Shown here: positions 42,600 through 62,705 of the stretch, piece after piece
Layout: the number at the start of each line of letters is the position of its first letter
Position numbering within the stretch: position 1 is the stretch's first letter
Assembly (NCBI GenBank): GCA_035541435.1
Contig: DATKNL010000009.1
Location: forward strand, 14,687-78,686
From: Minisyncoccota bacterium
GTDB lineage: Bacteria > Patescibacteriota > Minisyncoccia > UBA6257 > 2-01-FULL-56-20
Reading direction: 5' to 3'
Length of the DNA stretch: 64,000 bases
Notes under the pieces: model-generated
Database searches by the model: none
The model's input: the letters and a program-made list of their open reading frames with translations, nothing else
Told to the model about the DNA's origin: nothing
Program-made: the position numbers and the translations under genes

Positions 42600-42637
42600 G
42601 GCCGCGCGCGGCCCGAAGCCGAACGCAAGCGCGGGCG

Positions 42638-45530: not shown

Positions 45531-45592
45531 GGGTGCAGCCTAGCACCCCGTCGATTAAAAGAATCTAAAATTGCAGGTATAATGACGGATAT

Positions 45593-46513
45593 ATGAGAAT
45601 CATCGTAACCGGCGGGGCCGGATTCATCGGCTCGCACATCGTCGACGACTGCATCGCGAAGGGCCATTCGGTCGCCGTCATCGACAACCTGTCCACCGGA
45701 TCTCGCCGCAACCTCAACCGCAAAGCCCGGTTTCATAAGGCCGACATCAGGGACCGCGCCGCCATCGACCGCGTCTTCGCCAAGGAACGCCCCGAGGCCG
45801 TGAACCATCATGCGGCGCTCATCGAAGTGACGAAGTCGATGCGCGACCCGCACGGGACATTCGAGGCGAACGTCCTCGGAACGGCAAACGTGCTTGCCGC
45901 CTTCGCGGCGCACGGCCGCGGCGCCCGCCGCCGATTCGTTTTCGCGTCGACCGGTGGCGCGATCTATGGCGAACCGAAAAAGCTTCCCGCGAACGAAGCG
46001 ACGCCGATCGCGCCGCTCTCGCCCTACGGACTTTCGAAATACCTCGCCGAAGAGACGATCCGGTTCTATGCGCGCCTGCATGGGTTTTCCCATGTCATCC
46101 TCCGGTACACGAACGTCTATGGCCCGCGCCAGAACCCGAACGGCGAAGCGGGCGTCGTCGCGATCTTCACGCGTCTCATGAAAGCGGGACTACGGCCGAC
46201 CATCTTCGGCGACGGCAGCAAATCGCGCGACTACGTGCACGTGAGCGATGTCGTGCGCGCAAACGCCGCGGCGCTCCGCGCGGCATCGGACTTCACCGTG
46301 AACATCGGGACGGGTTCAGGCACGACCGACCGCATGATCTTCGACGCGATCGCCCGGGCAACCGGTTTCGCCAAGGAGCCGGTCTTCGCGCCCTATCGCA
46401 CGGGCGAGGTGTACCGCATCTCGCTCGACGCCCGCCTGGCGCGCCGCCGCCTCGGATGGAAGCCAACCGTCGCACTCGACCGCGGCATCAAAACCGTCGT
46501 CGACTCGCTCTGA
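45593..46513 (+). CDS. NAD-dependent epimerase/dehydratase (UDP-hexose 4-epimerase-like SDR)
   Basis: Rossmann motif IIVTGGAGFIGSH, catalytic YGLSK (YxxxK), RYTNVYGPRQ. Confidence 0.85.
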   Translation: MRIIVTGGAGFIGSHIVDDCIAKGHSVAVIDNLSTGSRRNLNRKARFHKADIRDRAAIDRVFAKERPEAVNHHAALIEVTKSMRDPHGTFEANVLGTANVLAAFAAHGRGARRRFVFASTGGAIYGEPKKLPANEATPIAPLSPYGLSKYLAEETIRFYARLHGFSHVILRYTNVYGPRQNPNGEAGVVAIFTRLMKAGLRPTIFGDGSKSRDYVHVSDVVRANAAALRAASDFTVNIGTGSGTTDRMIFDAIARATGFAKEPVFAPYRTGEVYRISLDARLARRRLGWKPTVALDRGIKTVVDSL

Positions 46514-46515
46514 TC

Positions 46516-48027
46516 ATGGACCAGCCGACACACGAACCGCCGCCGCCTGTTTCGAAAAAAGCAAGGATCCTTTCATTTCTTTTTAACAACAAAAACGCGA
46601 AGCAGACGATCGCCAAGAACACCTTCTGGCTTTCGGTCTCGAACTTCGGAGGCAAGGCGATCAGGGCCGTCATCATCATCTATGCCGCGCGCGTGCTTGG
46701 CGCGGCGGAATACGGCGTGTTCACCTATGCCATAACCCTTGCCGGATTCATTTCGCTTGTCATGGACCCCGGCATCAACTTCGTCTTCATGCGTGATGCC
46801 GCGCGCGCGTCCGACGAGGACCAACGGAGCATCTTCGGAACCGCCTTCGGCATCAAGCTCGTCCTGCTCGCAATCGGGGCGTCGATCATCCTGTTCGCCG
46901 GACCCCTGTTCTCGACGCTTCCCGGAGCGAAAATCCTGCTCCCCATCGCGGCGATCATCGCCGTCTTCGACACGCTGCGGGACTTCTTCCTCTCGCTCAT
47001 GCGCGCACGCGAGCAAATGGAGTGGGATGCGGGCATCACGCTCGTGACGAACCTCGCGATCGTCACGGTCGGCTTCGCGCTGCTTTTCCTCAGCCCGAGC
47101 GCGAAATCGCTCATCTGGGGATATGCGCTCGGCAGCGTCATCGGCACGACGATCGTCATGATCGCGCTCCGCAGCTACATCCGGACGGCGTTCGCGAAGT
47201 TCAGGCGGCGGCTCGCGAAACCGATGGTCGCGGCTGCGTGGCCCTTTGCCATCACGGGGGCGCTCGGCCTGCTGCTCACGAACGCCGACATCCTCATCAT
47301 CAGCTGGTTCCGCAGCGCGGAGGTGGTCGGCATCTATGCGGCGGGCATCCGGATCATCCAGGCCCTCTATCTTATTCCCGGCATCCTGCAGACGAGCACC
47401 CTGCCGCTCCTCGCGCGGCTGGCCAACAGCGACAACGAGAAGTTCCGCGGGACCCTCGAGCGGATCGTGAGCACGCTCTTCCTCGCCGCCATCCCGCTCG
47501 CGGCGGGAGGAATCGTCGTCGGCACCCAGCTCATCGGCACCATATTCGGCGCGGCATTCATCCCGGGCGCGCCGTCGTTCAAGATCCTCATGCTCACCAT
47601 GATGATCGACTTCCCCGGCTCCGTCATCGGCACGGCGGTATTCGCTTATGGCCATCAAAAGAGCCTGATCATCACGTCGGCGACCGCCGGCATCCTGAAT
47701 GTCGCGCTCGACCTCGCCCTCATCCCGCACTTCGGGATGGCGGGATCGGCCCTCGCAACGCTCATCGCCCAGGGGGCGAGCAACGCCTACCTCTGGGTCA
47801 TCATGAACCGCATCAATCCGTTTTCGGTCGCGAACCGCCTGAGGAACGTCCTCATCGCGACGGCGATCATGACGGTCCTCGCCGAAGCGCTCACGCTCCT
47901 GCACGTCGAGGTCTTCGTGACGATCGCCTGCTGCGTTGCCGCCTATTTCGCCATGCTTGCGACGTTCCGCGAACCGCTGCTCCGCGAGGTGACGAGCCGC
48001 TTTCAGACGAGGAATCCGCTCTCGTAA
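46516..48027 (+). CDS. Oligosaccharide/polysaccharide flippase (Wzx, MOP superfamily)
   Basis: ~14 TM, 503 aa, typical polysaccharide-biosynthesis-protein architecture. Start ATG at 46516, 3 nt after the epimerase stop. Confidence 0.8.
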   Translation: MDQPTHEPPPPVSKKARILSFLFNNKNAKQTIAKNTFWLSVSNFGGKAIRAVIIIYAARVLGAAEYGVFTYAITLAGFISLVMDPGINFVFMRDAARASDEDQRSIFGTAFGIKLVLLAIGASIILFAGPLFSTLPGAKILLPIAAIIAVFDTLRDFFLSLMRAREQMEWDAGITLVTNLAIVTVGFALLFLSPSAKSLIWGYALGSVIGTTIVMIALRSYIRTAFAKFRRRLAKPMVAAAWPFAITGALGLLLTNADILIISWFRSAEVVGIYAAGIRIIQALYLIPGILQTSTLPLLARLANSDNEKFRGTLERIVSTLFLAAIPLAAGGIVVGTQLIGTIFGAAFIPGAPSFKILMLTMMIDFPGSVIGTAVFAYGHQKSLIITSATAGILNVALDLALIPHFGMAGSALATLIAQGASNAYLWVIMNRINPFSVANRLRNVLIATAIMTVLAEALTLLHVEVFVTIACCVAAYFAMLATFREPLLREVTSRFQTRNPLS

Positions 48028-48902
48028 TAGTCCCTGATCCCGCTTTCGATCGAAAACGCCGGCACGAACCCCAGCTTTTCCTTGGCAAGCGACATGTCGC
48101 ACAGCGTGTAGTCCTGATAGCGCCCCTGGTACGGATTGTCGATATAGTCGGGCTTCCATTGCGTGCCAAGCACGCCGTTCAGGATCTCGATGATGCGGTT
48201 GAAGGTCGTCGCAACGCCTGAACCGCAGTTCACGATGCATGATTCCTTTGCCGCGAGCGCGAGCATGTTCGCCGTAACCACGTCCTTCACATAAATATAG
48301 TCGCGTTTCTGCTCGCCGTCCGTGAAGATCCGCGGCGCATGCTGCTTCATCTGGTGCGCCAGCTGATAGATCATCGTCGCGCGGCTCCCTTTGTGGCTCT
48401 CGCCCCGTCCATAGACGTTGCAATAACGGAGTCCCACGACCGTCACGTCGGGGTGGTCCTTCGCGACCTGCATGGCAAGCGCGTCGAGCGCCACTTTAGA
48501 TTCGGCATAGGGATTGAGCGGTTTCGGCGTCATCGTTTCTTGATAGGGCGGCGTGAGGTCGCCATAGATCGCGGTCGACGACGCATAGACGATGCGCTTG
48601 CAGCCGTTCTTCACGACATAGTCGAAGAGCGCCTTCGACGAGTCGGCGTTCGCCCGGAACATTTCGGCGCGGTCCATGTTCGTCGTGTCGTTGATCGCCG
48701 CCTCGTGGATCACTGCGTCGATATGCCCGATCGCATCCCAATCGATGCCGAGGAAGCTCGGCTGAAGGTATTTGCCGGTGAAACCCTTGAGCTTCTGCTC
48801 GGCATCGTGCCCGGTGATGAGCACGTCGTGTCCGTCCTCCATGAGCTTGCGGACGATGTTCGAGCCGATGAGGCCGGTGCCGCCGGTGACGAGGATTCTC
48901 AT
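48003..48902 (-). CDS. hldD: ADP-L-glycero-D-manno-heptose-6-epimerase
   Basis: ILVTGGTGLIGSNIV...RYCNVYGRGESHKGSRATMIYQLAHQ...IFTDGEQKRDYIYVKDV...GRYQDYTLCDMSLAKE aligns with E. coli HldD ([23 protein letters not shown]...LFEGSENFKRDFVYVGDV...GRYQAFTQADLTNLRA). Confidence 0.75.
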   Translation of the reverse strand: MRILVTGGTGLIGSNIVRKLMEDGHDVLITGHDAEQKLKGFTGKYLQPSFLGIDWDAIGHIDAVIHEAAINDTTNMDRAEMFRANADSSKALFDYVVKNGCKRIVYASSTAIYGDLTPPYQETMTPKPLNPYAESKVALDALAMQVAKDHPDVTVVGLRYCNVYGRGESHKGSRATMIYQLAHQMKQHAPRIFTDGEQKRDYIYVKDVVTANMLALAAKESCIVNCGSGVATTFNRIIEILNGVLGTQWKPDYIDNPYQGRYQDYTLCDMSLAKEKLGFVPAFSIESGIRDYYESGFLV

Positions 48903-48975
48903 AGGGATAGCGTACCATCCGTCCCCGGCCCGCGACAATACCGGACCGGACCAAGCCCGACCTCATCTGCCATTC

Positions 48976-49029: not shown

Positions 49030-49740
49030 TCAGAAGATCCGCTCGCCAAACCGCTCGAGATAGCGCTGCTGGAGCATGAGGAGCGCCGTCAGCGTCTTGA
49101 ACTCGGTGCAGGCCTCCATGCTCTCATGTTTCGCGAGCAGGCTGCCATACGCCATGGGCAACGGCACGACCTCGACCTTCTGGATCGGCTCATCGCTCGG
49201 AGGAGCGGGTTGCTCCCCGTCGAAGAACATGAGCGCATGGATGGAATACCCCTCGATCTGCGCACCGCCCGAACATGGGGTCGGAACCTTGAGGAGGCAC
49301 ATCTCGCCGACGACCGTCGGATCGATGCCGAACTCCTGTTTGAGTTCGCGCGTCGCGGCGCCAGGAAGCGTGATGTCCGATCCCTCGACGAGCCCTCCGG
49401 GAAGCTCCCGAAGCGTGTCGCCGGGATGATCTGTCACGAGCGCCGGATAGGGACGCACCTCGTGAACGAACATCGTTTTGCAGTTTTGGGGGCCGGCATT
49501 CCTGATCGTCTCGAGAAAATCTCCCGTGACGACCGCAGTGCTCGGGATGATGATCGGCAGCGCCTTCACGGCATAGATCTGCCCGGTGCTTACCACCATC
49601 ACCACCCACCGGAACGGGACTCCCGGCTCCTGGCAGGAAAACAGCACGTGATGGCTTGAGCCAAGAATTTTCACATCTTTGTCCTTGAGGTCGAGCGGCT
49701 TCTGCCACGGAAGAACTTCAGATGCTACCTCGGTAATCAT
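49030..49740 (-). CDS. NUDIX hydrolase (ADP-ribose/nucleotide-sugar pyrophosphatase-like)
   Basis: Nudix box PGGLVEGSDITLPGAATRELKQEFGI, i.e. GGx5Ex7REUxEExGU. Confidence 0.7.
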   Translation of the reverse strand: MITEVASEVLPWQKPLDLKDKDVKILGSSHHVLFSCQEPGVPFRWVVMVVSTGQIYAVKALPIIIPSTAVVTGDFLETIRNAGPQNCKTMFVHEVRPYPALVTDHPGDTLRELPGGLVEGSDITLPGAATRELKQEFGIDPTVVGEMCLLKVPTPCSGGAQIEGYSIHALMFFDGEQPAPPSDEPIQKVEVVPLPMAYGSLLAKHESMEACTEFKTLTALLMLQQRYLERFGERIF

Positions 49741-49937: not shown

Positions 49938-50663
49938 ATGGATTTGCAGGCTGTACGCGGCTGGCTTCTGCAGTTTGAAGCCATCTTCTTCGACTTCGAC
50001 GGCGTCATTGGCGATTCGGAACTCACGAAAGCCGAAATTTGGAAACGCCTCTTCAACGAATACGGCATTTCCGAACCGGGCGACACCTGGTACCAGGCGC
50101 ATATCGGCCGGACACGGATGGATCACTGCGTGGACATGGTGGACACGTTCCACCTTTCCGTCGCTCCGGCCGTCATTGCCGACCAGCAGAAGGCAATGGA
50201 GTTCGCGGCCTTCCACGACGAATTCGTTCCGCCGATCGAGCCGATGGTCCAGCTCGTAAAACGCCTGTACGAAGACAACGTCACCCTTGGCGTCGCCTCG
50301 TCGCAGCACCGGGCGATCGTCGAACGGCAGCTCGAGCACATGGGCATCAGGCACTGCTTTCGCGACGTCGTTTCATGCGAGGACGATTGTCCGACTCAGG
50401 GCAAACCGAACCCGCGAATCTATCAGCTTGCCGCCGAACGCCTCAATGTCGATCCGCATAAGTGCGCCGGCATCGAGGACACGGAATCGGGGCACGTTGC
50501 GGTCGCGGACGCCGGCATGTTCTGCATCGGATTCGAAAACCCGAACAGCGGCAGGCAGAACTTCCCGCGGGCCGATCTTGTTCTCGGATTCCCCGACGTC
50601 CAGGCACTCAACCCTCTTCTCGGCATCTACCGCGCGCTCTCAAGCGTGGGCGGCGACTATTAG
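49938..50663 (+). CDS. HAD-superfamily phosphatase (subfamily IA; candidate sugar-phosphate phosphatase)
   Basis: FFDFDGVIGDS (DxDG motif I), VASSQHRAIV (motif II), GKPNP...GIEDTESG (motif III/IV). Confidence 0.8.
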   Translation: MDLQAVRGWLLQFEAIFFDFDGVIGDSELTKAEIWKRLFNEYGISEPGDTWYQAHIGRTRMDHCVDMVDTFHLSVAPAVIADQQKAMEFAAFHDEFVPPIEPMVQLVKRLYEDNVTLGVASSQHRAIVERQLEHMGIRHCFRDVVSCEDDCPTQGKPNPRIYQLAAERLNVDPHKCAGIEDTESGHVAVADAGMFCIGFENPNSGRQNFPRADLVLGFPDVQALNPLLGIYRALSSVGGDY

Positions 50664-50739: not shown

Positions 50740-51246
50740 ATGATGACCGCCCGCGACAAGATCAAAACCATCGACGAGATCGCCCGCATCACGCGCGAGG
50801 CGCACGCCGCCGGCAAAAAAATCGTGACGACGAACGGAACGTTCGACCTCATCCACGTGGGCCATATCCGCAACCTCGAAGAGGCCCGCGCGATGGGCGA
50901 CCTCCTCATCGTCGGCGTGAATTCCGACGCATCGGTCAGGAACTACAAGGGACCGACCCGTCCGATCCTCGGCGAGGCCGACCGCGCGGAAATCATCGCG
51001 GGGCTCGAATCGGTGAGCCACGTCTTCATCTTCGACGAGCCCGATCCGCGCCCGTGGCTCGAGAAAATCCATACCGACATCCACGTGAAGGGCGGCGACT
51101 GGAAGAACGCCGACAAGTCGCGCGCAATCTCGACGATCGTCGAAGCGCCCCTTCTTGAAAGTAAGGGCGCGAAACTCGTACTCGTCGACCTCGTTCCCGG
51201 CAAATCGACGACCTCGATCATCGAGAAGATCCGGCAGCTTCCCTAA
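50740..51246 (+). CDS. RfaE domain-II-like nucleotidyltransferase (heptose 1-phosphate adenylyltransferase-like)
   Basis: KIVTTNGTFDLIHVGHIRNLEEARAMGDLLIVGVNSDASVRNYKGPTRPI..VSHVFIFDE..KGGDW, a near-canonical HldE C-domain. Confidence 0.75.
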   Translation: MMTARDKIKTIDEIARITREAHAAGKKIVTTNGTFDLIHVGHIRNLEEARAMGDLLIVGVNSDASVRNYKGPTRPILGEADRAEIIAGLESVSHVFIFDEPDPRPWLEKIHTDIHVKGGDWKNADKSRAISTIVEAPLLESKGAKLVLVDLVPGKSTTSIIEKIRQLP

Positions 51247-52235: not shown

Positions 52236-52292
52236 GATGTCAATTTACTATAATATCAAATATCGCTTCCTCAAAGCTCCCCGACCATAACC

Positions 52293-53480
52293 GTGAACCC
52301 GATCGAAGAAACCATCAAAAAGAACGGCGGCGTCATATTCGCCGAACCGGCGATCGTGCACCGCGTCGCCTATAGCGGCCGGAACATCGTCGGCCCGAAC
52401 GATTCCTTCACTGCGCCGCTCATGGACGGCCGCGGCTACCTGCCCGTCGAGTGGTGGGTCATGTCGATCACGCAGGCCGAGAACGACGCGCGCGTGGACG
52501 GCGAAGGCGTCTCGAACCTCGTCCTCGCCGACGGCAGCACGATGCGCCTCGACCATGCGGCCCGCGAATCCGAAACGCTCCTCTTCGGTCCGTACCGCTC
52601 GCGCTGGCCCCTCACGAAGATCCTCGACATCGGAGGCAAGCCAGTGAAGACGAGCTTCTCGAGCGAACCCGAGGTTCCGCCGATCCCCTGCCATCTGCAC
52701 TCGGGCGTTCCGGTGAACGGCGTCGCGAACATCGCGAGCGGCAAGCTCGAAGCCTATTTCCTGCCGCCGGTCGACGTCGCGCCGTACGAGCAGGACTTCG
52801 GCCGCGTGAAGACGCGCCTCGGCGTGAAGCCCTCGACGTCGCGCGGGGCGTTCCTGAACGGCATGAGGAAGTTCGGCATCGACGACGAGCTCTATGCGCT
52901 GCTCAACGAGTTCGAGGTCCGGCCGTTTGACGGATGGATCATCCCGCCGGGCGTCGTGCACGCGCCAGGACCGTGGACGACGTTCGAGATCCAGCTGCCG
53001 CAGGACGACTTCAACCTGCTCGCATGGCGCCTCGGCCAGAGGATTCCGGCGAACGAGCTCGCCTCGCAGCGGGAAGCGCAGCTCCTGCGCGGGCTGGGCA
53101 GCGAGGAAGAGGTCCTCGAAAAGCTCGTCGCGTGGGACGCGACCGCCCGCCCAGACTTCGAGCAGGCCTATCGCCGCCCGAGCCGCATCATCGAAGAGGG
53201 CGCCTGGGGCGCAAAACGGCAGATCTTCTTCGACCAGTTCTATGGCGAAAGCCTCGAGGTGAAGCCCGGCATGTCGTATGCCGTCACGGGCGACAAGCCG
53301 GTGGCAGCGGTCCTTTGGAGCGGGCATGGGACGGTGAACGGCCTCGCGCTCGACCACGGGAACGGCCGCGAACGCGAATTCCTCATAACCCCGAACGCCC
53401 GGGCGACGGTCGCGAACGCCGGCCCCTCGAACCTCATGCTGTTCCTCGTCCATCCGCTCACGATTGACAGAAAATATTAA
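52293..53480 (+). CDS. Cupin-superfamily sugar-phosphate isomerase-like protein (class I phosphomannose-isomerase-like, 395 aa)
   Basis: Size, predicted beta-rich composition and paired His-containing segments (PCHLHSGVP, GVVHAPGPW) resemble type I PMI. No confident motif match. Sits directly upstream of hldE. Confidence 0.35.
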   Translation: MNPIEETIKKNGGVIFAEPAIVHRVAYSGRNIVGPNDSFTAPLMDGRGYLPVEWWVMSITQAENDARVDGEGVSNLVLADGSTMRLDHAARESETLLFGPYRSRWPLTKILDIGGKPVKTSFSSEPEVPPIPCHLHSGVPVNGVANIASGKLEAYFLPPVDVAPYEQDFGRVKTRLGVKPSTSRGAFLNGMRKFGIDDELYALLNEFEVRPFDGWIIPPGVVHAPGPWTTFEIQLPQDDFNLLAWRLGQRIPANELASQREAQLLRGLGSEEEVLEKLVAWDATARPDFEQAYRRPSRIIEEGAWGAKRQIFFDQFYGESLEVKPGMSYAVTGDKPVAAVLWSGHGTVNGLALDHGNGREREFLITPNARATVANAGPSNLMLFLVHPLTIDRKY

Positions 53481-53501
53481 AAGTATTTTAATATTAGAAC
53501 T

Positions 53502-55016
53502 ATGGAGACAAAACGCGCCGCGGCAATCATTAAAAACGTTTCACGACTCAACGTCCTGGTCATCGGGGACTTCTTTCTCGACCGCTACAACATCACCGGC
53601 GAACCGACCATCTCCCCCGAGTTCCCCGTGCTCCGCTCGGCCGTAAGGGAACAGCTCGACTTCCCCGGCGCGGCGGCGAACATCGCGAGGAGCTTCGCAC
53701 GGCTGGGCGCGAAGGTTTCGATCGCCGGGTTCCTCGGCGAGAACGAGGCCGGCGCGACCCTAGCGCGGATCCTCGAACGCGACGGCATCGACACGGCCGG
53801 CGCGGTCCGCGGCGGCAAGACGGGCCTCTTCATGCGCATCGTTTCGCGGAACGGCAAGGATGTCGCCCACTTCCACCGCCTCGACGAGCCCCAGGAGCAT
53901 CCGGCCCACGCCCGCGAGCACGTCGCCGCCTTCGTGAAAAAGAACGTCGCGAAATTCGACCTCGTCTTCATCGCCGACTACGCGGAAAACGAAGATTCGG
54001 TCATCGACGCCAGCCTCGTCGCTTCGGTCACCCGCACCGCGAAGCACACGGCCGGCATGTCACGCAGCCGCATCGACCTTTTCAAGCAGATCACCTGGGT
54101 TTTCATGAACAAGCTCGAAGCCGCGAAGCTCATCGGCAAACCCGATGCCGACCGGCACGCAAAGACCATCAATCAGAAGATCGGCAGCCGGAACGTCGTC
54201 GTGACCCGCGGCCGCCACGGCGCGGTGACAAGCAACGGCACCGAAATCGCGGCGATCATGACGGACGTCGTCGACCCCTGCGGCGCCGGCGACACCTTCG
54301 CATCGACCTTCTGCGCTTCGCTGCTCGGGGGCGCCGACGAGAACGAGGCGGGCAACCTCGCCGCCCAGGCCGCGGCCATCGCCGTCGGACAGCACTTCAC
54401 CTATTGCCCGAGCGGCGAAGAAGTCATCGACGCCGTCGCGCGCGCGAACAGCGAATCGCAGGACCTCGACCGCCTCGCAAAGAAAATCGAGGACTATAAG
54501 TCGGCCGGCAAGGTCATCGTCTTCGCCAACGGCTTCTTCGACCTGATCCACAGCGGCCACGTGCTCATGCTTGAACGGGCGAAGCAGCTCGGCGACGTCC
54601 TCGTCGTCGGCATCAACTCGGACCGCTCGACCCGCGAGAACAAGGGGCCGGGTCGGCCGATCATGCCCGAAGCGAGCCGCATCAAGATCCTTTCGTCACT
54701 CCGGTTCGTCGACCACGTCTTCGTATTCGACGAGCTCACCCCCATCAAGGCAATCATGAAGCTGAAGCCCCACGTCATCGTGAAGGGCGGCAACTTCACG
54801 CCTGACGAGGTGATCGGCAAGAACATCGTCGAGGCCTACGGCGGCCGCGTCGAAGTCATCATCCCCGAGACGGGATTCATGACGGACGACCTCATCAGGC
54901 ATATCGCGGTCCCGCAGAAGGCCGCATCGCGGCCGAAAGCGAAACGGGGAGCGCCGGCGCGCGCGAGGAAATCCGCGAAGACGCACCGCCATGAAAACAA
55001 GCGATCGCGATCCTAA
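53502..55016 (+). CDS. hldE: Bifunctional D-beta-D-heptose 7-phosphate kinase / D-beta-D-heptose 1-phosphate adenylyltransferase
   Basis: N-terminal PfkB/ribokinase-like domain (VLVIGDFFLDRY ... DPCGAGDTFASTF). C-terminal RfaE-II domain (VIVFANGFFDLIHSGHVLMLERAKQLGDVLVVGINSD ... KGGNF). Confidence 0.85.
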   Translation: METKRAAAIIKNVSRLNVLVIGDFFLDRYNITGEPTISPEFPVLRSAVREQLDFPGAAANIARSFARLGAKVSIAGFLGENEAGATLARILERDGIDTAGAVRGGKTGLFMRIVSRNGKDVAHFHRLDEPQEHPAHAREHVAAFVKKNVAKFDLVFIADYAENEDSVIDASLVASVTRTAKHTAGMSRSRIDLFKQITWVFMNKLEAAKLIGKPDADRHAKTINQKIGSRNVVVTRGRHGAVTSNGTEIAAIMTDVVDPCGAGDTFASTFCASLLGGADENEAGNLAAQAAAIAVGQHFTYCPSGEEVIDAVARANSESQDLDRLAKKIEDYKSAGKVIVFANGFFDLIHSGHVLMLERAKQLGDVLVVGINSDRSTRENKGPGRPIMPEASRIKILSSLRFVDHVFVFDELTPIKAIMKLKPHVIVKGGNFTPDEVIGKNIVEAYGGRVEVIIPETGFMTDDLIRHIAVPQKAASRPKAKRGAPARARKSAKTHRHENKRSRS

Positions 55017-55899
55017 GACCTATATCGACATCGCGCACAGCTTCGTCAACCGCTCCGACCTGCCGGACGCCGAGAAGAAGCTCATCGCTTCGGAGCTTGA
55101 GCGCTACCTCAAGGTGCAGCTGACCCGCAACCAGTGGCTCGAGCCCGCGATCACGAAGTTCTGCACGGACTGGTACCGCGAGTTCTATCGCATGATCGAC
55201 CGCGCCGATCCGTATCGCGGCGTGAAGGACCTGTCGCGCCGGCACGCCGAGCGCCTGACCGCGCGCTTCAAGCCCGCGACGTTCGGCGAGATCCTCATGT
55301 TCTGCATCCTGGGGAACAAGATCGACTATGGCTCGCTCTCGGCGCATACGCCCGATTTCGCCGAGCTCGAACAGGACCTCCGCCATTCGGCCGCCGAGGC
55401 GCTCGACATCGACGACTCCGCCGGCCTCGATCGCGCCATCCGGAAGGCGCGCCAGGTCATGCTGCTCGTCGACAACGTCGGCGAAATCGAGTTCGACAAA
55501 TTCCTACTCGGCTACGTTAAAAAGAATGGCACGGCGAGGATCCTCATCGCGGGCAAGGAGGAGCCGATGCTGAACGATGCGACCGTCCACGACCTGCGCG
55601 AATCCGGCATGAGCCGTTTCGGCACAATCGTCTCGACGGGCAGCGACTGCTTCGGCCTGCACGAGGAATATGTCTCCCCCGCCTTCAAGAAGGAGTTCAA
55701 AACGAGCGACCTCGTGATCGCGAAGGGGCAGGCCTATCTGGAATTCTTCACCGAATATAATATTGCGAACGTATTCAACGTCCTTTATTCGAAATATCCG
55801 ATCGTCGGCAACGGCTTCAGGCTGCCGCCGCACAAGAAGGCCGTCATTTCGTCGAAGCGGTATGCGCACCCGAACAACCGGCGCTACGATTTCGGCTAG
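54991..55899 (+). CDS. DUF89 (ARMT1-like) metal-dependent sugar-phosphate phosphatase
   Basis: LLVDNVGEIEFD (DNxGxE motif) and IAKGQAYLEFF (KGxxNYE-like). Overlaps the hldE 3' end by 26 nt, so likely translationally coupled. Confidence 0.65.
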   Translation: MKTSDRDPKTYIDIAHSFVNRSDLPDAEKKLIASELERYLKVQLTRNQWLEPAITKFCTDWYREFYRMIDRADPYRGVKDLSRRHAERLTARFKPATFGEILMFCILGNKIDYGSLSAHTPDFAELEQDLRHSAAEALDIDDSAGLDRAIRKARQVMLLVDNVGEIEFDKFLLGYVKKNGTARILIAGKEEPMLNDATVHDLRESGMSRFGTIVSTGSDCFGLHEEYVSPAFKKEFKTSDLVIAKGQAYLEFFTEYNIANVFNVLYSKYPIVGNGFRLPPHKKAVISSKRYAHPNNRRYDFG

Positions 55900-59090: not shown

Positions 59091-59975
59091 TTACGGGCGC
59101 ATGAAGACGAAGTTGTCATAGCCGAGATTGCCGGCCTGATCGGGGCGTTCAAGAAGCTCGGGATCGCCCTCCTTGTTGAGGCCGTACAGCCGGTAGCCTT
59201 CGCGCGCGAGCAGTCCGATCGTCCCGCCGTGGGCCTCCGCGCCGTCGTCGCTCTTCCAGAGTTCCATCAGAATGACCGGATGTGCCTGCGCGATCATCGC
59301 GCGGGCACCCGCGAGCACCTCCTCCTCGAAGCCCTCGACATCGATTTTCATGATCGTCGGCGGACGATGGCTCTTCGCGTAATCGTCCAGGGTCGTGGTC
59401 TTCGCAATAATTTTCTTAAAGCGGCTGTCGGGACGGAACCCGCTCATGCCTGACATCCGCGGATCGGCATAATAGTCGCGCTCCTCCCCCATCACATCCG
59501 CTACGGCGATCAGGTTCGCAGTCATGTTCGGACGATCGGCATTCTTAACGAGCACCTTAAAGGTGCACGGGTTCGCCTCGAAACTGTGAATCTCGCCTGC
59601 CGTGACGAATTCCTTCGCGAGCGCGGAATAGAATCCGATGTGTGCACCGACGTCATAGAACACGGAATCGTCCTTCAGATTCTTCACGAGGAATTTCGTA
59701 AGCGGCAGCTCGAATCCCGGCAGCGCGCCGAAGAACACGACCGCGATATCCTCGGGAAGGTCGATATAAATGTCCTTCCCCCAGAACGCCCGCGCCTTGG
59801 TCACCATCGGAAACAGCCAGGTTACATAATAGAGTCCCTTGAGGCCATAGCGGCGAAGCGCGTACCAGAGCCGCCGCGACCGAGCCGCAACGGTGCCGCC
59901 ACCCGGCAGATAGGCATCAAAGGCGGCGATCTCGGGCTCTTTTGCTTTAAGAAGATCGAGGCAGGCTTCCCTCAT
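59091..59975 (-). CDS. FkbM-family methyltransferase
   Basis: FYDVGAHIGFYSALA (SAM motif I) and IMKIDVEGFEEEVLAGA (FkbM signature). Start at internal ATG 59975. Confidence 0.75.
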   Translation of the reverse strand: MREACLDLLKAKEPEIAAFDAYLPGGGTVAARSRRLWYALRRYGLKGLYYVTWLFPMVTKARAFWGKDIYIDLPEDIAVVFFGALPGFELPLTKFLVKNLKDDSVFYDVGAHIGFYSALAKEFVTAGEIHSFEANPCTFKVLVKNADRPNMTANLIAVADVMGEERDYYADPRMSGMSGFRPDSRFKKIIAKTTTLDDYAKSHRPPTIMKIDVEGFEEEVLAGARAMIAQAHPVILMELWKSDDGAEAHGGTIGLLAREGYRLYGLNKEGDPELLERPDQAGNLGYDNFVFMRP

Positions 59976-61252
59976 AGGAATGTGGGCTCGAACGGTTCGT
60001 TGCGGACGGGGTGCCGCTTCAGATAATCGAGCAGGCCGTCGAACTCGCGGATTACGTCGTCCGCCTCGACGGCCGCGATGCACGGGGCGGGCTCGCCGAC
60101 GGGCACGGTCGCGGCGCAGCGCCAATCGTCATAGAGGCAGCCGACATCCTTATAGACCCAGCGGTTCACGCCGCGGCGGCCATAGAGGGAATTCATGCCG
60201 AGGTGCGCGCCCGCGGGAATGCAGACCGAAGGGACGCCGAGGGCGACCGCGACGTGAACCGGTCCCGTATCGTTCGTGATCACGCTGTGCGCGTTCGCGA
60301 CGACCACCGATGATTCCGCAAGCGAGAACGCGCCGCAGCCGTTCACGAGCGGCACCGAGGCCAGTTCGGCGATGCGCCGGCCGAGGACGGCTTCGTCGGG
60401 AGAGCCGATGGTCGCGAGGCCGAATCCGCGCGCATGCACGGCGGCGGCAACGGCGGCGAACTTCTCGACCTGCCAGCGCTTCATGGGATCGCTCGCGCCG
60501 GGAACCAGCACGACATAGCGGCCTTTCGCAAGCCCCATTTCGCGCATCTTGCGCGAGGCGCCGTCGACCGCCGCGGGATCGATATGGAAATTGAGCGAAA
60601 ACTCGCGGGCGGGCGCACCGCCCGTCACGGCCATGCGGATCGCGTCATGATGCAGGAGCGCGTTCGCAGGATGGCCGCCATGCCGGTCGAAATCCCGATC
60701 GATCGACGGCACCGTCACCGCATAGCGCGGAAAGACGTGCCGGCGGGCATATCGGTCGAAACGCGCCGATTCGGGGTTGCGCAGCTCGACCCACGGCCCC
60801 TCGTATCCCACCACGCGTTGCGCGCCGAGCGAAGCGGCCACGACCCTGCTCGTCTTCTCTTTGATGCCAAGGCACTGGTTGACGACTTCGCTGAAACCGA
60901 TTTCGCGCAGCATGTTGATCGAACGCAGCGCGTACAACGGGTTCGTGCCGAACTTCGACGAATCGATCTTGATCACCTCGTCAACCGTGTCGCCGAATGC
61001 CGCCGGCGAAAGTCCCGACTGGCGCGCGATGGCAAGATGGATTTTCTTCCCGCCGAAATGCCGCCGATACTGCGCAAGGACCGACGTCGCGATGATGACG
61101 TCGCCGATGCCGTGAAAGTCGACGATGAGCACCCGGTCCTCCCATCCTTCCTTGTTGACCTTCGACCCGAACAGCGCGAGCAGAACGCGCGCGGCCCATC
61201 CGGCGAGGGTCCACTTGATGAAAAATTTCATTTTCTCGGTTGTCGTATCCAT
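59972..61252 (-). CDS. Glycosyltransferase family 9 (heptosyltransferase)
   Basis: VLIVDFHGIGDVIIATSVLAQYRRHF and the C-terminal NDTGPVHVAVALGVPSVCI GT9 signature. Confidence 0.85.
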   Translation of the reverse strand: MDTTTEKMKFFIKWTLAGWAARVLLALFGSKVNKEGWEDRVLIVDFHGIGDVIIATSVLAQYRRHFGGKKIHLAIARQSGLSPAAFGDTVDEVIKIDSSKFGTNPLYALRSINMLREIGFSEVVNQCLGIKEKTSRVVAASLGAQRVVGYEGPWVELRNPESARFDRYARRHVFPRYAVTVPSIDRDFDRHGGHPANALLHHDAIRMAVTGGAPAREFSLNFHIDPAAVDGASRKMREMGLAKGRYVVLVPGASDPMKRWQVEKFAAVAAAVHARGFGLATIGSPDEAVLGRRIAELASVPLVNGCGAFSLAESSVVVANAHSVITNDTGPVHVAVALGVPSVCIPAGAHLGMNSLYGRRGVNRWVYKDVGCLYDDWRCAATVPVGEPAPCIAAVEADDVIREFDGLLDYLKRHPVRNEPFEPTFL

Positions 61253-61261
61253 GAAAGTTGC

Positions 61262-62623
61262 TTATGCGTCCATGTAAGCCGCAAGGAACGGCTCGGTGCG
61301 CTCAGGGTGCGTGTGGAGGTAGTCGTCGAGCCTATGATAGTCCGCGACGACCTCGGCGGCCGTTACGGCTTCGAGGCACGGCGCGGGCGATCCCTGCGGG
61401 ACCGTGAGGGCGCACCGGGCGTCGTCATAGAGGCATCCGATATCCTTATATATCCACCGGTTCACCGCCTTGCGGCCATAGAGCGAATTGAAGGCGATGT
61501 GCCCTGCCGTCGCGATGCAGATCGTCGGAACGCCGAGGGCCACCGCGATATGCACCGGCCCCGTGTCGTTCGTGATGAGCATGTGCGCGTGCCTGATGAC
61601 CGCGGCCGATTCCATCAGCGTAACCGCTCCCGCGGTATCGATCAACGGGAACGGCAGGTGCTTCCCAAACTCCCGGCTGTAGGGCTGCTGCGCAGGCGAG
61701 CCGATGACGAGGACATCGAAGCCCCGCGCGTGCACGGCCTTCGCGACCTCGGCGAACTTGCCGATGTTCCATTGCCGGGCGGGATCGACGCACGCGACGG
61801 CGAACGCGACATAGCGTCCGGGTTTCGTCCCCCATTGCCCGATCTTCTCGAGCACGGCCGCATCCGCTGCCGGGTCGATGCCGAACGCCGTCGACGGATC
61901 GCGCGGACCGCCGTGGCCGTGAAGGGCGTCGGCGAGCGCAAGATGGTGCTGGATCGCTGTCTTCGGATGCGTTCCCTGCTTCATGAAATCCTTGTCGATC
62001 GATTCGACGAGGCGGGTGTAGCGGCCGAAGATGCGCGAGCGCGAAAACCGCACGAAAGGCGCCGCTGTCAGGTCGAGCAGCTCGATGCCCGGGCCTTCGT
62101 AGCCGACAACCGTTTCCGCCTTGAGCGAAACGGCGATGAGCTTGCTCGTGAGGTCCTTGAGGCCGGCCGCATCGTTCACGACCGTGCGGAAGCCGATCCG
62201 GCGCAGCCGGTTGACCGTCGCGACCTGATATCCCGGGCTCGATTGGAACCGCACGCCGTCGAAGACCACGAGGTCGTCGACCAGGTCGCCGAACATGGCC
62301 TTCGTCATGCCGCCGTGCTTCGTGACGAGCAGGAATATTTTCTTCGATGCGAACTTCGCACGGTACTGCCGCAGGGCGGGCGTCGCCATGATCACGTCGC
62401 CGATGCCGCCTGCGCCGATGATCAGCACCCGGTCGTCCCAGCCGTCCCGGTTCACGGGGGCGCCGAAAAGGTTGAGGGCCGCACCTGCGATGCCGCTCAT
62501 CAGGTCCCAGCGGAGAAAGAATTTCACGCGCTCCTCGCGTTCGCGTCCCCGAGGACCCGATCCGAAACCAAGATCGAGGACTTTCTTGAGGGAGGACGTG
62601 ATCGGCATGGGTTCGAAATCCAT
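61262..62623 (-). CDS. Glycosyltransferase family 9 (heptosyltransferase), paralogue
   Basis: VLIIGAGGIGDVIMATPALRQYRAKF and NDTGPVHIAVALGVPTICI. Start codon uncertain (M13 chosen). Confidence 0.85.
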   Translation of the reverse strand: MDFEPMPITSSLKKVLDLGFGSGPRGREREERVKFFLRWDLMSGIAGAALNLFGAPVNRDGWDDRVLIIGAGGIGDVIMATPALRQYRAKFASKKIFLLVTKHGGMTKAMFGDLVDDLVVFDGVRFQSSPGYQVATVNRLRRIGFRTVVNDAAGLKDLTSKLIAVSLKAETVVGYEGPGIELLDLTAAPFVRFSRSRIFGRYTRLVESIDKDFMKQGTHPKTAIQHHLALADALHGHGGPRDPSTAFGIDPAADAAVLEKIGQWGTKPGRYVAFAVACVDPARQWNIGKFAEVAKAVHARGFDVLVIGSPAQQPYSREFGKHLPFPLIDTAGAVTLMESAAVIRHAHMLITNDTGPVHIAVALGVPTICIATAGHIAFNSLYGRKAVNRWIYKDIGCLYDDARCALTVPQGSPAPCLEAVTAAEVVADYHRLDDYLHTHPERTEPFLAAYMDA

Positions 62624-62705
62624 ACCATCGTACCACGGCCCCCGAGGCCCGGAAAGCAAGGAATTGCGGCTTGCCCCCGCCCTCCGAACGGCCTACAATG
62701 ACGCT

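What the first reader, a model, noticed from the sequence alone, without database searches (positions are those of the whole stretch)
52293..55899. ADP-heptose pathway whose GmhA/GmhB steps may be supplied by non-orthologous enzymes: a cupin isomerase and a DUF89 phosphatase
The locus encodes bifunctional HldE (kinase plus adenylyltransferase) and HldD epimerase, yet no SIS-domain GmhA and no HAD-IIIA GmhB are visible. Instead, hldE is immediately preceded by a 395-aa cupin/PMI-type isomerase-like gene and is overlapped at its 3' end by a DUF89 (ARMT1-like) gene. DUF89 proteins are metal-dependent phosphatases acting on phosphosugars. One can therefore infer a sedoheptulose-7-P to heptose-7-P isomerase and a heptose-1,7-bisphosphate 7-phosphatase that are analogous, not homologous, to GmhA/GmhB. 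Two IA-type HAD phosphatases nearby (49938..50663, 23965..24636) are alternative GmhB candidates.
Basis: partly seen in the sequence, partly recalled or inferred. Interest (0 to 1): 0.6.

Follow-up and report, generated by a model that had tools for sequence, protein, structure and literature searches.

The report
Alternative heptose pathway: cupin isomerase, DUF89 phosphatase
A candidate-phyla-radiation bacterium carries a conserved gene cassette that appears to make nucleotide-activated heptose sugar using two enzymes unrelated to the textbook ones: an unnamed mannose-phosphate-isomerase-like cupin in place of GmhA, and a DUF89 phosphatase in place of GmhB. The same cassette, often fused into single proteins, recurs in archaea and other bacteria.

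Summary
Positions 52293-55899 hold a three-gene operon: a 395-aa protein with no Pfam or NCBIfam match, a diverged HldE (PfkB kinase plus RfaE-type nucleotidyltransferase), and a DUF89/ARMT1 phosphatase overlapping the hldE 3' end by 26 nt. The 64-kb window has no GmhA- or GmhB-like ORF.

The 395-aa protein models confidently (pLDDT 95) as a bicupin. Its best structural matches are all phosphomannose isomerases, and it keeps an invariant H-x-H...E...H metal site.

- The cupin is fused, in different organisms, to the kinase, the nucleotidyltransferase and DUF89.
- 13 of 15 cupin loci that hold an HldE kinase also hold DUF89, against 0 of 80 ordinary HldE loci.
- GmhA or GmhB lies near 28 of 80 ordinary HldE loci and near 0 of 15 cupin loci.
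- Cupin-linked HldEs form one clade.
- In four other CPR loci the cupin sits with transaldolase (the sedoheptulose-7-P enzyme), a heptose-kinase-like PfkB, an RfaE-type transferase and a HAD phosphatase. Two of these loci also carry a GT9 transferase.

No enzyme activity has been tested, and genome-wide absence of gmhA/gmhB could not be checked. I found no prior description. I call it a new variant of a known pathway, interest 0.7.

The parts
52293..53480 (+). 395-aa PMI-like bicupin from an unnamed family. Proposed metal-dependent sedoheptulose-7-P / D-glycero-D-manno-heptose-7-P isomerase (GmhA analogue). Invariant H134, H136, E153, H223, K109, K151, E232, D238, D239.
   Evidence: ORF. No Pfam or NCBIfam hit. 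207 homologues, none above 52% identity. Invariant residues. AF2 pLDDT 95.4. Top PDB fold hits are all PMIs. Profile against PDB: 1zx5, E=5.7e-4. Fusions and synteny.
53502..55016 (+). Diverged bifunctional HldE. The PfkB kinase domain covers aa 18-299. The RfaE-domain-II nucleotidyltransferase covers aa 342-458; it keeps HSGH, but the C-terminal G-x-STT motif is degenerate (GFMTDD).
   Evidence: Pfam PfkB 2.4e-33 and CTP_transf_like 3.3e-18. NF008454 scores 272.5 bits against a cutoff of 521. Best homologues are 39-43% identical. Groups with the 13 other cupin-linked HldEs in one clade. Motifs.
54991..55899 (+). DUF89/ARMT1 subfamily-I metal-dependent phosphatase. Proposed heptose-1,7-bisphosphate 7-phosphatase (GmhB analogue). 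The DNVGE, NDAT and AKGQ motifs are kept.
   Evidence: PF01937 E=3.9e-39. PDB 2g8l E=8.7e-34 and 2ffj E=1.1e-16. Only 51 homologues with E below 1e-10, many on the same contigs as cupin genes and five fused to an NTase. DUF89 present in 16 of 29 cupin loci and 0 of 80 control loci.
52236..52292 (+). 57-nt AT-rich intergenic region upstream of the cupin gene, containing TATAAT. Probable promoter of the cupin-hldE-DUF89 operon, divergent from the 330-aa gene on the minus strand.
   Evidence: Sequence read directly. Inference only; no promoter scan was run.
50740..51246 (+). Standalone 168-aa RfaE-domain-II-type nucleotidyltransferase (HVGH and GKSTT motifs intact). This second NTase paralogue is conserved in the cassette. 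Elsewhere it is fused to the cupin or to DUF89.
   Evidence: TIGR02199 158.3 bits, cutoff 181.5. An NTase of this type is found in 14 of the 28 related loci (L001-L009, L015, L020, L024, L026), and the L020 orthologue passes the cutoff at 184.2 bits.
49938..50663 (+). HAD-IA hydrolase (beta-phosphoglucomutase-family-like), co-directional with the standalone NTase. Possible alternative or redundant heptose phosphatase.
   Evidence: HAD_2 1.8e-27. TIGR02009 90.6 bits, cutoff 153. A HAD-IA sits between the NTase and the cupin in L024.
48003..48938 (-). HldD-like SDR, a probable ADP-heptose 6-epimerase.
   Evidence: TIGR02197 E=2.6e-71, 240.4 bits, cutoff 274.6. Orthologues lie next to the cassette in L005 and L008.
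49030..49740 (-). NUDIX hydrolase, possibly an NDP-sugar pyrophosphatase. Not part of the conserved cassette.
   Evidence: PF00293 E=7.6e-7. Seen only in the window.
59972..62659 (-). Two GT9 (heptosyltransferase-family) glycosyltransferases, at 59972-61252 and 61262-62659. Likely users of the NDP-heptose.
   Evidence: PF01075 6e-20 and 1.3e-19. GT9 genes lie near the cassette in L001, L005, L006, L008, L015, L020 and L026.
39494..48027 (.). Upstream part of the same surface-glycan locus: two GT2, a Bac_transf initiating transferase (41268-42599), another cytidylyltransferase-like gene (42638-43150), an SDR epimerase/dehydratase (45593-46513) and a Wzx-type flippase (46456-48027).
   Evidence: Pfam scans.

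Best explanation
The operon is a non-canonical route to nucleotide-activated glycero-manno-heptose for a surface glycan of a CPR bacterium (Candidatus Paceibacterota).

- Step 1 (inferred): the PMI-like bicupin uses a bound divalent metal (His134, His136, Glu153, His223). It isomerises sedoheptulose-7-P to D-glycero-D-manno-heptose-7-P, the one-carbon-longer analogue of the fructose-6-P to mannose-6-P reaction.
- Step 2 (by homology): the PfkB domain of the HldE-like protein phosphorylates O1.
- Step 3 (inferred): the DUF89 subfamily-I phosphatase removes the 7-phosphate.
- Step 4 (by homology): an RfaE-type nucleotidyltransferase makes NDP-heptose, probably ADP-heptose. This is either the HldE C-terminal domain or the standalone 168-aa enzyme.
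- Downstream (by homology and context): the HldD-like epimerase and the GT9 transferases use the product. The glycan is built on a lipid carrier started by the Bac_transf enzyme and exported by the Wzx-type flippase.

The cupin and DUF89 are analogues of GmhA and GmhB, not homologues.
For: Fold and active site:
- AF2 pLDDT is 95.4.
- The 17 best PDB fold matches are all phosphomannose isomerases.
- H-x-H, E and H are invariant in 38 sequences from three domains of life.
- The motifs are collinear with the E. coli ManA residues K86, Q97/H99, K132/E134, H255 and E264. These are the residues mutated in the Salmonella PMI structures listed.

Rosetta-stone fusions:
- PfkB-NTase-cupin, ARMT1-NTase-cupin, ARMT1-cupin, cupin-PfkB, NTase-cupin and cupin-NTase.
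- DUF89-NTase fusions.

Synteny and mutual exclusion:
- DUF89: 13 of 15 cupin loci with an HldE kinase, against 0 of 80 controls (p=3e-14).
- GmhA: 0 of 15 against 25 of 80 (p=0.009).
- GmhA or GmhB: 0 of 15 against 28 of 80 (p=0.004).
- A 26-sequence GmhA profile finds nothing in any cupin locus.

Other evidence:
- The 14 cupin-linked HldEs, from bacteria and archaea, are monophyletic among 90 HldEs.
- In CPR loci L018, L020, L024 and L026 the cupin lies beside a transaldolase (TIGR02134 351 bits, cutoff 282). Each locus also has a HAD phosphatase.
- L020, L024 and L026 add a PfkB kinase whose best family hit is rfaE_dom_I and an NTase (the L020 one passes the rfaE_dom_II cutoff). L020 and L026 add a GT9.
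- By elimination, the cupin is the only candidate for the isomerase step.
- HldD-like and GT9 genes next to the cassette point to a heptose.
- DUF89 enzymes are established metal-dependent phosphatases that act on sugar phosphates (PMC9062747).
Against: - No activity of any of these proteins has been measured. Every assignment rests on homology, fold and context.
- The window's HldE, HldD and NTase all score below the NCBIfam equivalog cutoffs. [quoted passage not shown]
- The cassette carries two NTase paralogues for one predicted NTase step. This is unexplained.
- The window also encodes a HAD-IA that could be the phosphatase.
- Some family members (L010, L013) sit with an FGGY kinase in an apparently catabolic context, with no HldE or DUF89.
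- Eukaryotic members are not clustered with anything relevant.
- Only 64 kb of the genome, and 10 kb either side in other loci, could be inspected. A distant gmhA or gmhB cannot be excluded.
- The neighbour-joining tree has no support values. The control loci are a capped sample.
Confidence: 0.65

Rival explanations
1. The enzyme logic is the same (isomerase, anomeric kinase, phosphatase, nucleotidyltransferase) but the sugar differs. The product could be another heptose stereoisomer (for example gluco- or altro-configured) or an NDP-beta-mannose made from fructose-6-P.
For: The cupin-linked HldEs are a separate clade, only 39-43% identical to their nearest relatives and far below the HldE equivalog cutoff. 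The NTase domain of HldE has a degenerate STT motif. The cupin fold is that of a hexose-phosphate isomerase.
Against: A transaldolase, which handles sedoheptulose-7-P, sits in the operon in four CPR loci. HldD-like 6-epimerases, which need a heptose C6 secondary alcohol, and GT9 heptosyltransferase-family genes flank the cassette. The best family hits for the kinase and NTases are the heptose-specific rfaE models, and one NTase passes its cutoff.
Confidence: 0.15
2. The four enzyme types and the product are the same, but the order differs. DUF89 might first dephosphorylate sedoheptulose-7-P, with the cupin acting on free sugars and the kinase making heptose-1-P directly. Alternatively, the NTase might adenylylate the bisphosphate and DUF89 then dephosphorylate ADP-heptose-7-P.
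For: Family members next to FGGY kinases, DUF4432 and a sugar-binding protein could be acting on free sugars. The presence of two NTases leaves room for an extra nucleotidylated intermediate.
Against: The kinase is homologous to heptose-7-P kinases. The FGGY context is equally well explained by kinase-then-isomerase, as in mannose catabolism. There is no direct evidence either way.
Confidence: 0.1
3. The cupin and DUF89 are accessory enzymes. Canonical gmhA and gmhB lie elsewhere in the genome, or the HAD-IA at 49938-50663 is the real phosphatase. DUF89 would be a damage-control enzyme clearing a toxic phosphosugar, and the cupin an epimerase or an ordinary mannose-6-P isomerase.
For: DUF89 enzymes are described as damage-control phosphatases. 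HAD phosphatases occupy the slot in some CPR loci, and one lies nearby in the window. The rest of the genome was not inspected.
Against: Covalent fusions of DUF89 and the cupin to the pathway enzymes. The strict co-occurrence and the exclusion of GmhA/GmhB. The DUF89 clade is small and almost confined to cupin contigs. The cupin matches no PMI family model. In the CPR operons no other isomerase candidate exists.
Confidence: 0.08

Closest known systems
Canonical ADP-L-glycero-beta-D-manno-heptose pathway (GmhA, HldE or HldA+HldC, GmhB, HldD) of Gram-negative bacteria
   Same: Four-step logic: isomerase, anomeric kinase, 7-phosphatase, nucleotidyltransferase. The kinase, NTase and epimerase are homologous, and GT9 transferases lie downstream.
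   Different: The isomerase is a PMI-like bicupin rather than a SIS-domain protein, and the phosphatase is DUF89 rather than HAD-IIIA. There is a second NTase paralogue. The HldE belongs to a separate clade. The hosts are CPR bacteria, DPANN and Methanosarcinales archaea and others, many of which have no LPS.
Type I phosphomannose isomerase (ManA; PDB 3h1m, 1pmi, 1qwr, 1zx5)
   Same: Bicupin fold (Foldseek E down to 3e-16, TM up to 0.74 on the target). The order of active-site motifs is collinear, including a metal-binding H/Q-x-H, E, H set. The chemistry is a ketose-phosphate to manno-aldose-phosphate isomerisation.
   Different: Only 9-15% identity. No PMI Pfam or NCBIfam model matches, and hhalign against E. 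coli ManA is not significant. The first metal ligand is His, not Gln. The genomic partners are heptose genes, not mannose genes.
Bifunctional type II PMI / GDP-mannose pyrophosphorylase (for example AlgA, XanB); cited from general knowledge
   Same: A cupin isomerase is fused to the nucleotidyltransferase of the same pathway, and the two catalyse non-consecutive steps. The NTase-cupin and cupin-NTase fusions seen here follow the same logic.
   Different: The NTase is of the cytidylyltransferase/RfaE-II type (PF01467), not the NTP_transferase type. The cupin is a two-barrel, PMI-type-I-like protein. Fusions also involve the kinase and the phosphatase.
DUF89 / ARMT1 damage-control phosphatases (PH1575 = PDB 2g8l, AF1104 = 2ffj, yeast YMR027W, human ARMT1, PANK4 C-terminal domain)
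   Same: Clear family membership, with conserved motifs. The family is known to hydrolyse sugar phosphates such as fructose-1-P and fructose-6-P with a divalent metal.
   Different: Here the enzyme appears to be a dedicated biosynthetic step, not a repair activity. It belongs to a small clade fused to or clustered with NDP-heptose enzymes. It scores 158.6 bits against the NCBIfam damage-control equivalog, whose cutoff is 440.
NDP-heptose biosynthetic enzymes across kingdoms (Tang et al., Science 2024; read only through digests PMC11461863 and PMC11573728)
   Same: HldE-type enzymes outside Gram-negative bacteria, including archaea and eukaryotes. Mono-, di- and tri-domain NTase architectures.
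   Different: According to the digests, that survey searched by homology for the canonical isomerase and phosphatase types and reported the phosphatase missing in viruses and eukaryotes. The digests mention neither a cupin isomerase nor a DUF89 phosphatase.

Membership tests
GmhA (SIS-domain sedoheptulose-7-P isomerase) | SIS fold, or sequence similarity to GmhA | tested here: not met
   The cupin has no Pfam or NCBIfam hit and models as a bicupin. E. coli GmhA and a 26-sequence GmhA profile hit nothing in the window or in L001-L080. The cupin is therefore an analogue at most.
GmhA (SIS-domain sedoheptulose-7-P isomerase) | Catalyses sedoheptulose-7-P to D-glycero-D-manno-heptose-7-P | not testable with these tools
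   Inferred from context only.
Type I phosphomannose isomerase | Match to PMI family models or significant sequence similarity | tested here: not met
   No Pfam or NCBIfam PMI hit. hhalign against E. coli ManA gives probability 0.3%. The only match is a marginal profile hit to the putative PMI 1zx5, E=5.7e-4.
Type I phosphomannose isomerase | PMI bicupin fold | tested here: met
   The Foldseek top 17 PDB hits are all PMIs, E=3e-16 to 2e-9, with target TM up to 0.74.
Type I phosphomannose isomerase | Metal-ligand set (Q/H-x-H, E, H) and catalytic Lys/Glu residues | tested here: inconclusive
   Invariant H134, H136, E153, H223, K109, K151 and E232 are collinear with ManA K86, Q97/H99, K132/E134, H255 and E264. 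Only the H223 segment is aligned by a program. No structural superposition of residues was available.
DUF89 / ARMT1-like phosphatase (PF01937) | Pfam model above the gathering score | tested here: met
   135.1 bits against a cutoff of 25, E=3.9e-39.
DUF89 / ARMT1-like phosphatase (PF01937) | Subfamily I (short prokaryotic form) with conserved active-site motifs | tested here: met
   Aligns to PH1575 (2g8l) at E=8.7e-34 with DNVGE, NDAT and AKGQ conserved. JGI names relatives 'damage-control phosphatase, subfamily I'. It falls below the NCBIfam equivalog cutoff, 158.6 against 440.
GmhB (HAD-IIIA heptose-1,7-bisphosphate phosphatase) | HAD-IIIA sequence family | tested here: not met
   DUF89 is unrelated to HAD. 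The GmhB profile gives only weak generic-HAD hits in the window (best 2.1e-5, at 23968-24654), against 1e-22 to 1e-55 in the control loci.
HldE (bifunctional heptose-7-P kinase / heptose-1-P adenylyltransferase) | PfkB plus cytidylyltransferase-like two-domain architecture, with rfaE models as best hits | tested here: met
   NF008454 E=5.8e-81 over residues 10-469. rfaE_dom_I and rfaE_dom_II are the best domain hits.
HldE (bifunctional heptose-7-P kinase / heptose-1-P adenylyltransferase) | Score above the NCBIfam equivalog cutoff | tested here: not met
   272.5 bits against 521; domain models 148.6 against 345 and 159.7 against 181.5. It lies in a separate clade from 76 ordinary HldEs.
HldE (bifunctional heptose-7-P kinase / heptose-1-P adenylyltransferase) | NTase signature motifs HxGH and G-x-STT | tested here: inconclusive
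   HSGH is present, but STT is replaced by MTD (GFMTDD). The standalone NTase at 50740-51246 has both HVGH and GKSTT.
HldD (ADP-glyceromanno-heptose 6-epimerase) | TIGR02197 equivalog | tested here: inconclusive
   It is the best hit, aligned end to end, E=2.6e-71, but 240.4 bits falls below the cutoff of 274.6.

The most novel reading that the evidence does not exclude
The unnamed bicupin family is a previously unrecognised heptose-7-P/sedoheptulose-7-P isomerase that works in all three domains of life.

- It acts anabolically in the HldE/DUF89 cassette of CPR bacteria, DPANN and Methanosarcinales archaea and others.
- It acts catabolically with FGGY kinases in Bacillota-type bacteria.
- It also works in sponges and amoebae, where it would be the isomerase of an animal or protist heptose pathway.
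- DUF89 subfamily I would then have its first dedicated biosynthetic role.
- The second conserved nucleotidyltransferase would make a distinct NDP-heptose (for example CDP- or UDP-heptose).
Probability: 0.3. Interest if true: 0.85.

Novelty: new variant of a known kind. Interest (0 to 1): 0.7.

Why it matters
ADP-heptose and related NDP-heptoses are building blocks of LPS and of surface glycans. They are also potent agonists of the vertebrate innate immune receptor ALPK1.

Surveys that ask which organisms can make them search for GmhA and GmhB homologues. They would miss every organism that uses this cassette.

If the inference holds, several things follow:
- It defines a new sugar-phosphate isomerase family. 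The family is about 45% identical between bacteria, archaea and sponges, yet has no name in Pfam or NCBIfam.
- It gives DUF89 subfamily I a concrete physiological substrate.
- It shows that minimal-genome CPR and DPANN organisms invest in heptose glycans.
- It offers a clean example of double non-orthologous displacement within one four-step pathway.

The prediction can be tested directly by complementing E. coli gmhA and gmhB mutants.

Tried and rejected
- hhalign of the family alignment against E. coli ManA was not significant. Homology to PMI therefore rests on fold, plus a marginal profile hit.
- Looking up the contig beyond the window failed. The gene at 61262-62659 is not on record, and the cupin look-up returned only a 10-kb duplicate contig. 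Genome-wide absence of gmhA/gmhB could not be tested.
- The primary papers were not held: Tang et al. 2024 and Huang et al. 2016. I used digests and secondary sources instead.
- No members were found in the viral collection.
- The 330-aa gene between the NTase and the cupin (51243-52235) remains unassigned. It has no Pfam hit even at E below 10 and no significant BLASTP similarity to the GT9 gene. A single-sequence AF2 model was unusable, pLDDT 36. It has no relatives in the other loci, so I do not count it as part of the cassette.
- I considered the HAD-IA at 23965-24636 as a GmhB candidate. It lies 28 kb away, next to a DUF84 NTPase and an ECF sigma factor, and nothing supports the idea.
- I considered the distant cupin clade (about 25% identity, L029-L080) as part of the system and rejected it. 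It never co-occurs with HldE, DUF89 or an NTase. It sits with glycoside-hydrolase-like genes and with GFO/IDH/MocA and LacI genes.
- Seven literature searches linking DUF89, ARMT1 or cupins with heptose, GmhA, GmhB or HldE found nothing relevant.

Full report
**Observation**

The three ORFs are as described.
- A 395-aa gene at 52293-53480.
- A 504-aa gene at 53502-55016, starting 21 nt downstream.
- A 302-aa gene at 54991-55899 that overlaps the previous stop by 26 nt.

All are on the plus strand. They follow a 57-nt AT-rich gap that contains TATAAT. GC3 is 0.85-0.87.

Family scans:
- The middle gene has PfkB plus a cytidylyltransferase-like domain. NCBIfam's best hit is bifunctional HldE, but at 272.5 bits against a cutoff of 521.
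- The third gene is a clear DUF89/ARMT1 protein (PF01937, E=3.9e-39).
- The first gene matches nothing in Pfam or NCBIfam.

An HldD-like SDR lies at 48003-48938 (TIGR02197, 240 bits against a cutoff of 274.6).

It is co-directional with the HAD-IA gene at 49938-50663.

The region from 39.5 to 62.7 kb is a surface-glycan locus. It contains:
- four GT2 genes, a GT4 and two GT9;
- a Bac_transf initiating transferase and a Wzx-type flippase;
- an FkbM methyltransferase.

The window's DUF89 protein is on record at NCBI as coming from a Candidatus Paceibacterota MAG, on a 114-kb contig. That phylum is the CPR phylum Minisyncoccota, in the kingdom Bacillati. LPS is therefore not the expected destination of the heptose.

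**No GmhA or GmhB**

I took E. coli GmhA and GmhB from the MG1655 record.
- Neither finds anything in the six-frame ORFs of the window, even at lax thresholds. The best E values are 0.015 and 0.2.
- Profiles built from 26 GmhA and 15 GmhB sequences give no GmhA hit at all, and only weak generic-HAD hits for GmhB.
- The same queries find GmhA in 25 and GmhB in 14 of 80 ordinary HldE loci, at E values of 1e-20 to 1e-64. Sensitivity is therefore not the problem.

**The 395-aa protein**

It has 207 detectable homologues, and the closest is only 52% identical. They come from bacteria, archaea and eukaryotes: the sponges Sycon, Halichondria and Oopsacas, the amoeba Pelomyxa, and protist transcriptomes.

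The Sycon gene spans 12 kb with introns and lies between ordinary animal genes. At least some of the eukaryotic members are therefore genuine eukaryotic genes.

The family is rare. A profile search of 1.84 billion cluster representatives gives only 339 hits below 1e-10, many of them fragments.

An alignment of 38 members has 53% mean column identity. The invariant residues include H134, H136, E153, H223, K109, K151, R175, E232, Q234, D238 and D239.

With that alignment, AlphaFold gives pLDDT 95.4. The 17 best Foldseek PDB hits are all phosphomannose isomerases, from Archaeoglobus, Bacillus, Salmonella and Candida. Their E values run from 3e-16 to 2e-9 at 9-15% identity.

At sequence level the link to PMI is marginal.
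- The family profile hits 1zx5 at E=5.7e-4.
- hhalign against E. coli ManA fails.

By inspection, the family's conserved motifs are collinear with ManA motifs:

| This family | E. coli ManA |
|---|---|
| WPLTK109 | LFK86 |
| H134-x-H136 | Q97-x-H99 |
| K151-x-E153 | K132-x-E134 |
| H223-A-P | H255-A-Y |
| E232...D238-D239 | E264...SDN |

Those ManA positions are the ones mutated in the Salmonella PMI structures listed.

I conclude that this is a metal-dependent sugar-phosphate aldose-ketose isomerase of the PMI fold. It is not a member of the PMI family as currently defined.

**Comparative genomics**

A scan of one genome per species returned 28 loci with close relatives (39-54% identity). It also returned a distant clade at about 25% identity.

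I searched the six-frame ORFs of the 28 close loci with the window's own proteins. This revealed a recurrent cassette: an HldE-like gene, DUF89, a second RfaE-type NTase, and the cupin.

The hosts are:
- archaea: Methanosarcinales, Woesearchaeota and Aenigmatarchaeota;
- bacteria: Acidobacteriota, Planctomycetota, Krumholzibacteriota and Patescibacteria.

The parts are fused in many combinations, and DUF89-NTase fusions also occur:

| Architecture | Examples |
|---|---|
| DUF89-NTase-cupin | Methanosarcinales L001, L004, L006, L008; P0293 |
| PfkB-NTase-cupin | Woesearchaeota L003, L007; P0292 |
| DUF89-cupin | P0294, P0034 |
| cupin-PfkB | P0297, P0329 |
| NTase-cupin | P0008 |
| cupin-NTase | P0017 |

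The DUF89 clade is small: only 51 hits below 1e-10. Most of it lies on the same contigs as cupin genes.

**Control and statistics**

I fetched 80 metagenome loci that encode HldE relatives, 28-35% identical to the window's protein. None has the cupin or DUF89; 25 have GmhA and 14 have GmhB.

Among the 29 cupin loci:
- 15 hold an HldE kinase;
- 13 of those 15 hold DUF89, and the two exceptions are contigs of 6.2 and 4.8 kb;
- none holds GmhA or GmhB.

Fisher tests give:
- DUF89: p=3e-14;
- GmhA: p=0.009;
- GmhA or GmhB: p=0.004.

In a neighbour-joining tree of 90 HldE sequences, the 14 cupin-linked ones form a single clade with no ordinary HldE inside it.

**The CPR variant**

Four other CPR loci have no HldE fusion and no DUF89 (L018, L020, L024, L026). 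There the cupin is flanked by the following:
- A transaldolase, in all four loci. The L020 protein scores 351 bits against the TIGR02134 cutoff of 282.
- A standalone PfkB kinase in L020, L024 and L026. Its best family hit is rfaE_dom_I, at 152-171 bits, against about 72 for ribokinase.
- An RfaE-type NTase in the same three loci. The L020 protein passes the equivalog cutoff (184.2 against 181.5).
- A HAD phosphatase. It is Cof-type in L018, L020 and L026, and HAD-IA in L024.
- A GT9 gene in L020 and L026.

Transaldolase is the enzyme that makes or consumes sedoheptulose-7-P. It occurs near only 1 of the 80 control loci.

In L020, L024 and L026 every step from sedoheptulose-7-P to NDP-heptose has a recognisable enzyme except the isomerase. 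The cupin is the only unassigned enzyme there.

The phosphatase slot is filled by unrelated families: DUF89, HAD-IIB or HAD-IA. That pattern is what one expects if DUF89 is the pathway phosphatase.

**Mechanism**

- Steps shown by homology: the anomeric kinase (PfkB domain), the nucleotidyl transfer (HxGH enzymes), and probably the 6-epimerisation (HldD-like) and the heptosyl transfer (GT9).
- Steps inferred from fold, fusion and context: isomerisation of sedoheptulose-7-P by the cupin, and removal of the 7-phosphate by DUF89.
- The chemistry is plausible. Sedoheptulose-7-P is the one-carbon-longer analogue of fructose-6-P, and heptose-7-P has the manno configuration that PMI produces.
- DUF89 enzymes are established metal-dependent phosphatases. 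They use an aspartyl-phosphate intermediate and act on fructose phosphates (PMC9062747; PMC8669784).

**Unexplained or uncertain**

- The cassette keeps two NTase paralogues. The one fused to the kinase has a degenerate STT motif. The standalone or cupin-fused one keeps it. One may have a different nucleotide specificity.
- The order of the steps is not established.
- The window has both DUF89 and a HAD-IA next to the second NTase, so the two may be redundant.
- Family members in Limnochordales and Bacillota sit in an apparently catabolic context with no HldE or DUF89: a DUF4432-FGGY kinase-cupin operon in L010 and cupin-FGGY in L013. In an uncultured Clostridia locus (L012) the cupin lies about 1 kb from a solute-binding protein. 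This fits a reversible heptose-7-P/sedoheptulose-7-P isomerase that follows a kinase, as PMI does in mannose catabolism. It could also mean that free sugars are the substrates.
- Eukaryotic members are not clustered with anything informative. No close DUF89 relatives from eukaryotes were found.
- All HldE, HldD and NTase scores in the window fall below the equivalog cutoffs, so a different heptose isomer cannot be excluded.

**Comparison with what is known**

The pathway logic is that of the canonical ADP-heptose route. The isomerase and the phosphatase are analogues, not homologues, of GmhA and GmhB.

The cupin-NTase fusions parallel the bifunctional type II PMI/GDP-mannose pyrophosphorylases (general knowledge, not checked here).

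The recent cross-kingdom survey of NDP-heptose enzymes could be read only through two digests (PMC11461863 and PMC11573728). It used the canonical enzyme types and reported the phosphatase missing in viruses and eukaryotes. The digests mention neither a cupin nor DUF89.

Seven full-text searches found no paper linking DUF89, ARMT1 or a cupin with heptose synthesis. The library does not hold most subscription journals.

**Caveats**

- Only 10 kb either side of each gene could be read.
- The control set is a capped sample.
- Taxon labels are those of the MAG records.
- The tree has no support values.
- The motif correspondence with ManA is by inspection.
- No experiment has been done.

**Verdict**

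- The finding is a new variant of a known pathway that involves an unnamed enzyme family.
- Confidence in the specific mechanism is 0.65.
- My own estimate that the cupin and DUF89 belong functionally to this NDP-sugar pathway is about 0.85.
- Interest is 0.7.

Noticed in passing
window 50740-51246, 53502-55016 (C-terminal domain), 3557-4153, 42638-43150: The 64-kb window holds four cytidylyltransferase-like (PF01467) genes or domains. Two of them belong to the heptose cassette as distinct paralogues: one keeps the G-x-STT motif and the other does not. Two nucleotidyltransferases for one predicted step is unexplained.
   Followed up: partly
window 49938-50663 with 50740-51246; L024 9239-9931: A HAD-IA protein of the beta-phosphoglucomutase family sits directly upstream of the standalone heptose-type NTase. 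In L024 one sits between the NTase and the cupin. It could be a phosphatase redundant with DUF89, or conceivably a beta-heptose phosphomutase.
   Followed up: partly
window 51243-52235 (-): A 330-aa gene lies between the NTase and the cupin. It has no family match, no relatives in the other loci and an unusable single-sequence structure model. A short C-terminal stretch weakly resembles the GT9 'DxGxxHxA' region.
   Followed up: partly
L010 3209-7222; L013 588-3441; L012 5624-9965: Close cupin homologues (about 46% identity) in Limnochordales and Bacillota sit in DUF4432-FGGY kinase-cupin (L010) or cupin-FGGY (L013) operons; in an uncultured Clostridia locus (L012) a solute-binding protein lies about 1 kb away. 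No HldE or DUF89 is present. This may be a heptose (or other sugar) catabolic route.
   Followed up: partly
L029-L080 (for example L032 9977-11221, L046 9914-11194, L061 9887-11119): A distant sister clade of the cupin (about 25% identity, also without a Pfam match) occurs in Planctomycetota, Hydrogenedentota, Armatimonadota and Spirochaetota. It lies next to GHL6-type glycoside-hydrolase-like genes, a GFO/IDH/MocA oxidoreductase and a LacI regulator. It looks like another uncharacterised sugar isomerase family.
   Followed up: partly
P0047 (Sycon ciliatum, L164 10001-22206), P0071, P0098, P0030 (Pelomyxa, L165): The cupin family is about 45% identical between bacteria and eukaryotes. It is present in sponges (an intron-containing gene between ordinary animal genes in Sycon) and in amoebozoans. 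Its role there is unknown.
   Followed up: partly
P0311 (681 aa): One family member is fused to a phosphoribulokinase/uridine-kinase-family (PF00485) domain instead of a PfkB kinase. This may be another kinase displacement within the same pathway.
   Followed up: no
window 28200-30270: A low-GC islet lies next to tRNA-Ser(GGA) at 30181-30268. GC is about 0.50 here, against 0.57-0.66 elsewhere in the window. It carries a Ser_hydrolase-family ORF (28614-29186) and two ORFs without matches. It may be a small horizontally acquired insertion at the tRNA.
   Followed up: partly
window 14212-17730 (-): A 1172-aa ORF whose only match is an N-terminal peptidoglycan-binding domain (PG_binding_1). It is probably a large cell-surface protein.
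   Followed up: no
L026 14339-15874; L018 6367-9837: The CPR heptose loci also carry a B12-binding radical-SAM enzyme, several methyltransferases (TylF, FkbM and class I) and a PhyH-family dioxygenase. This suggests that the heptose or the glycan is further modified.
   Followed up: no
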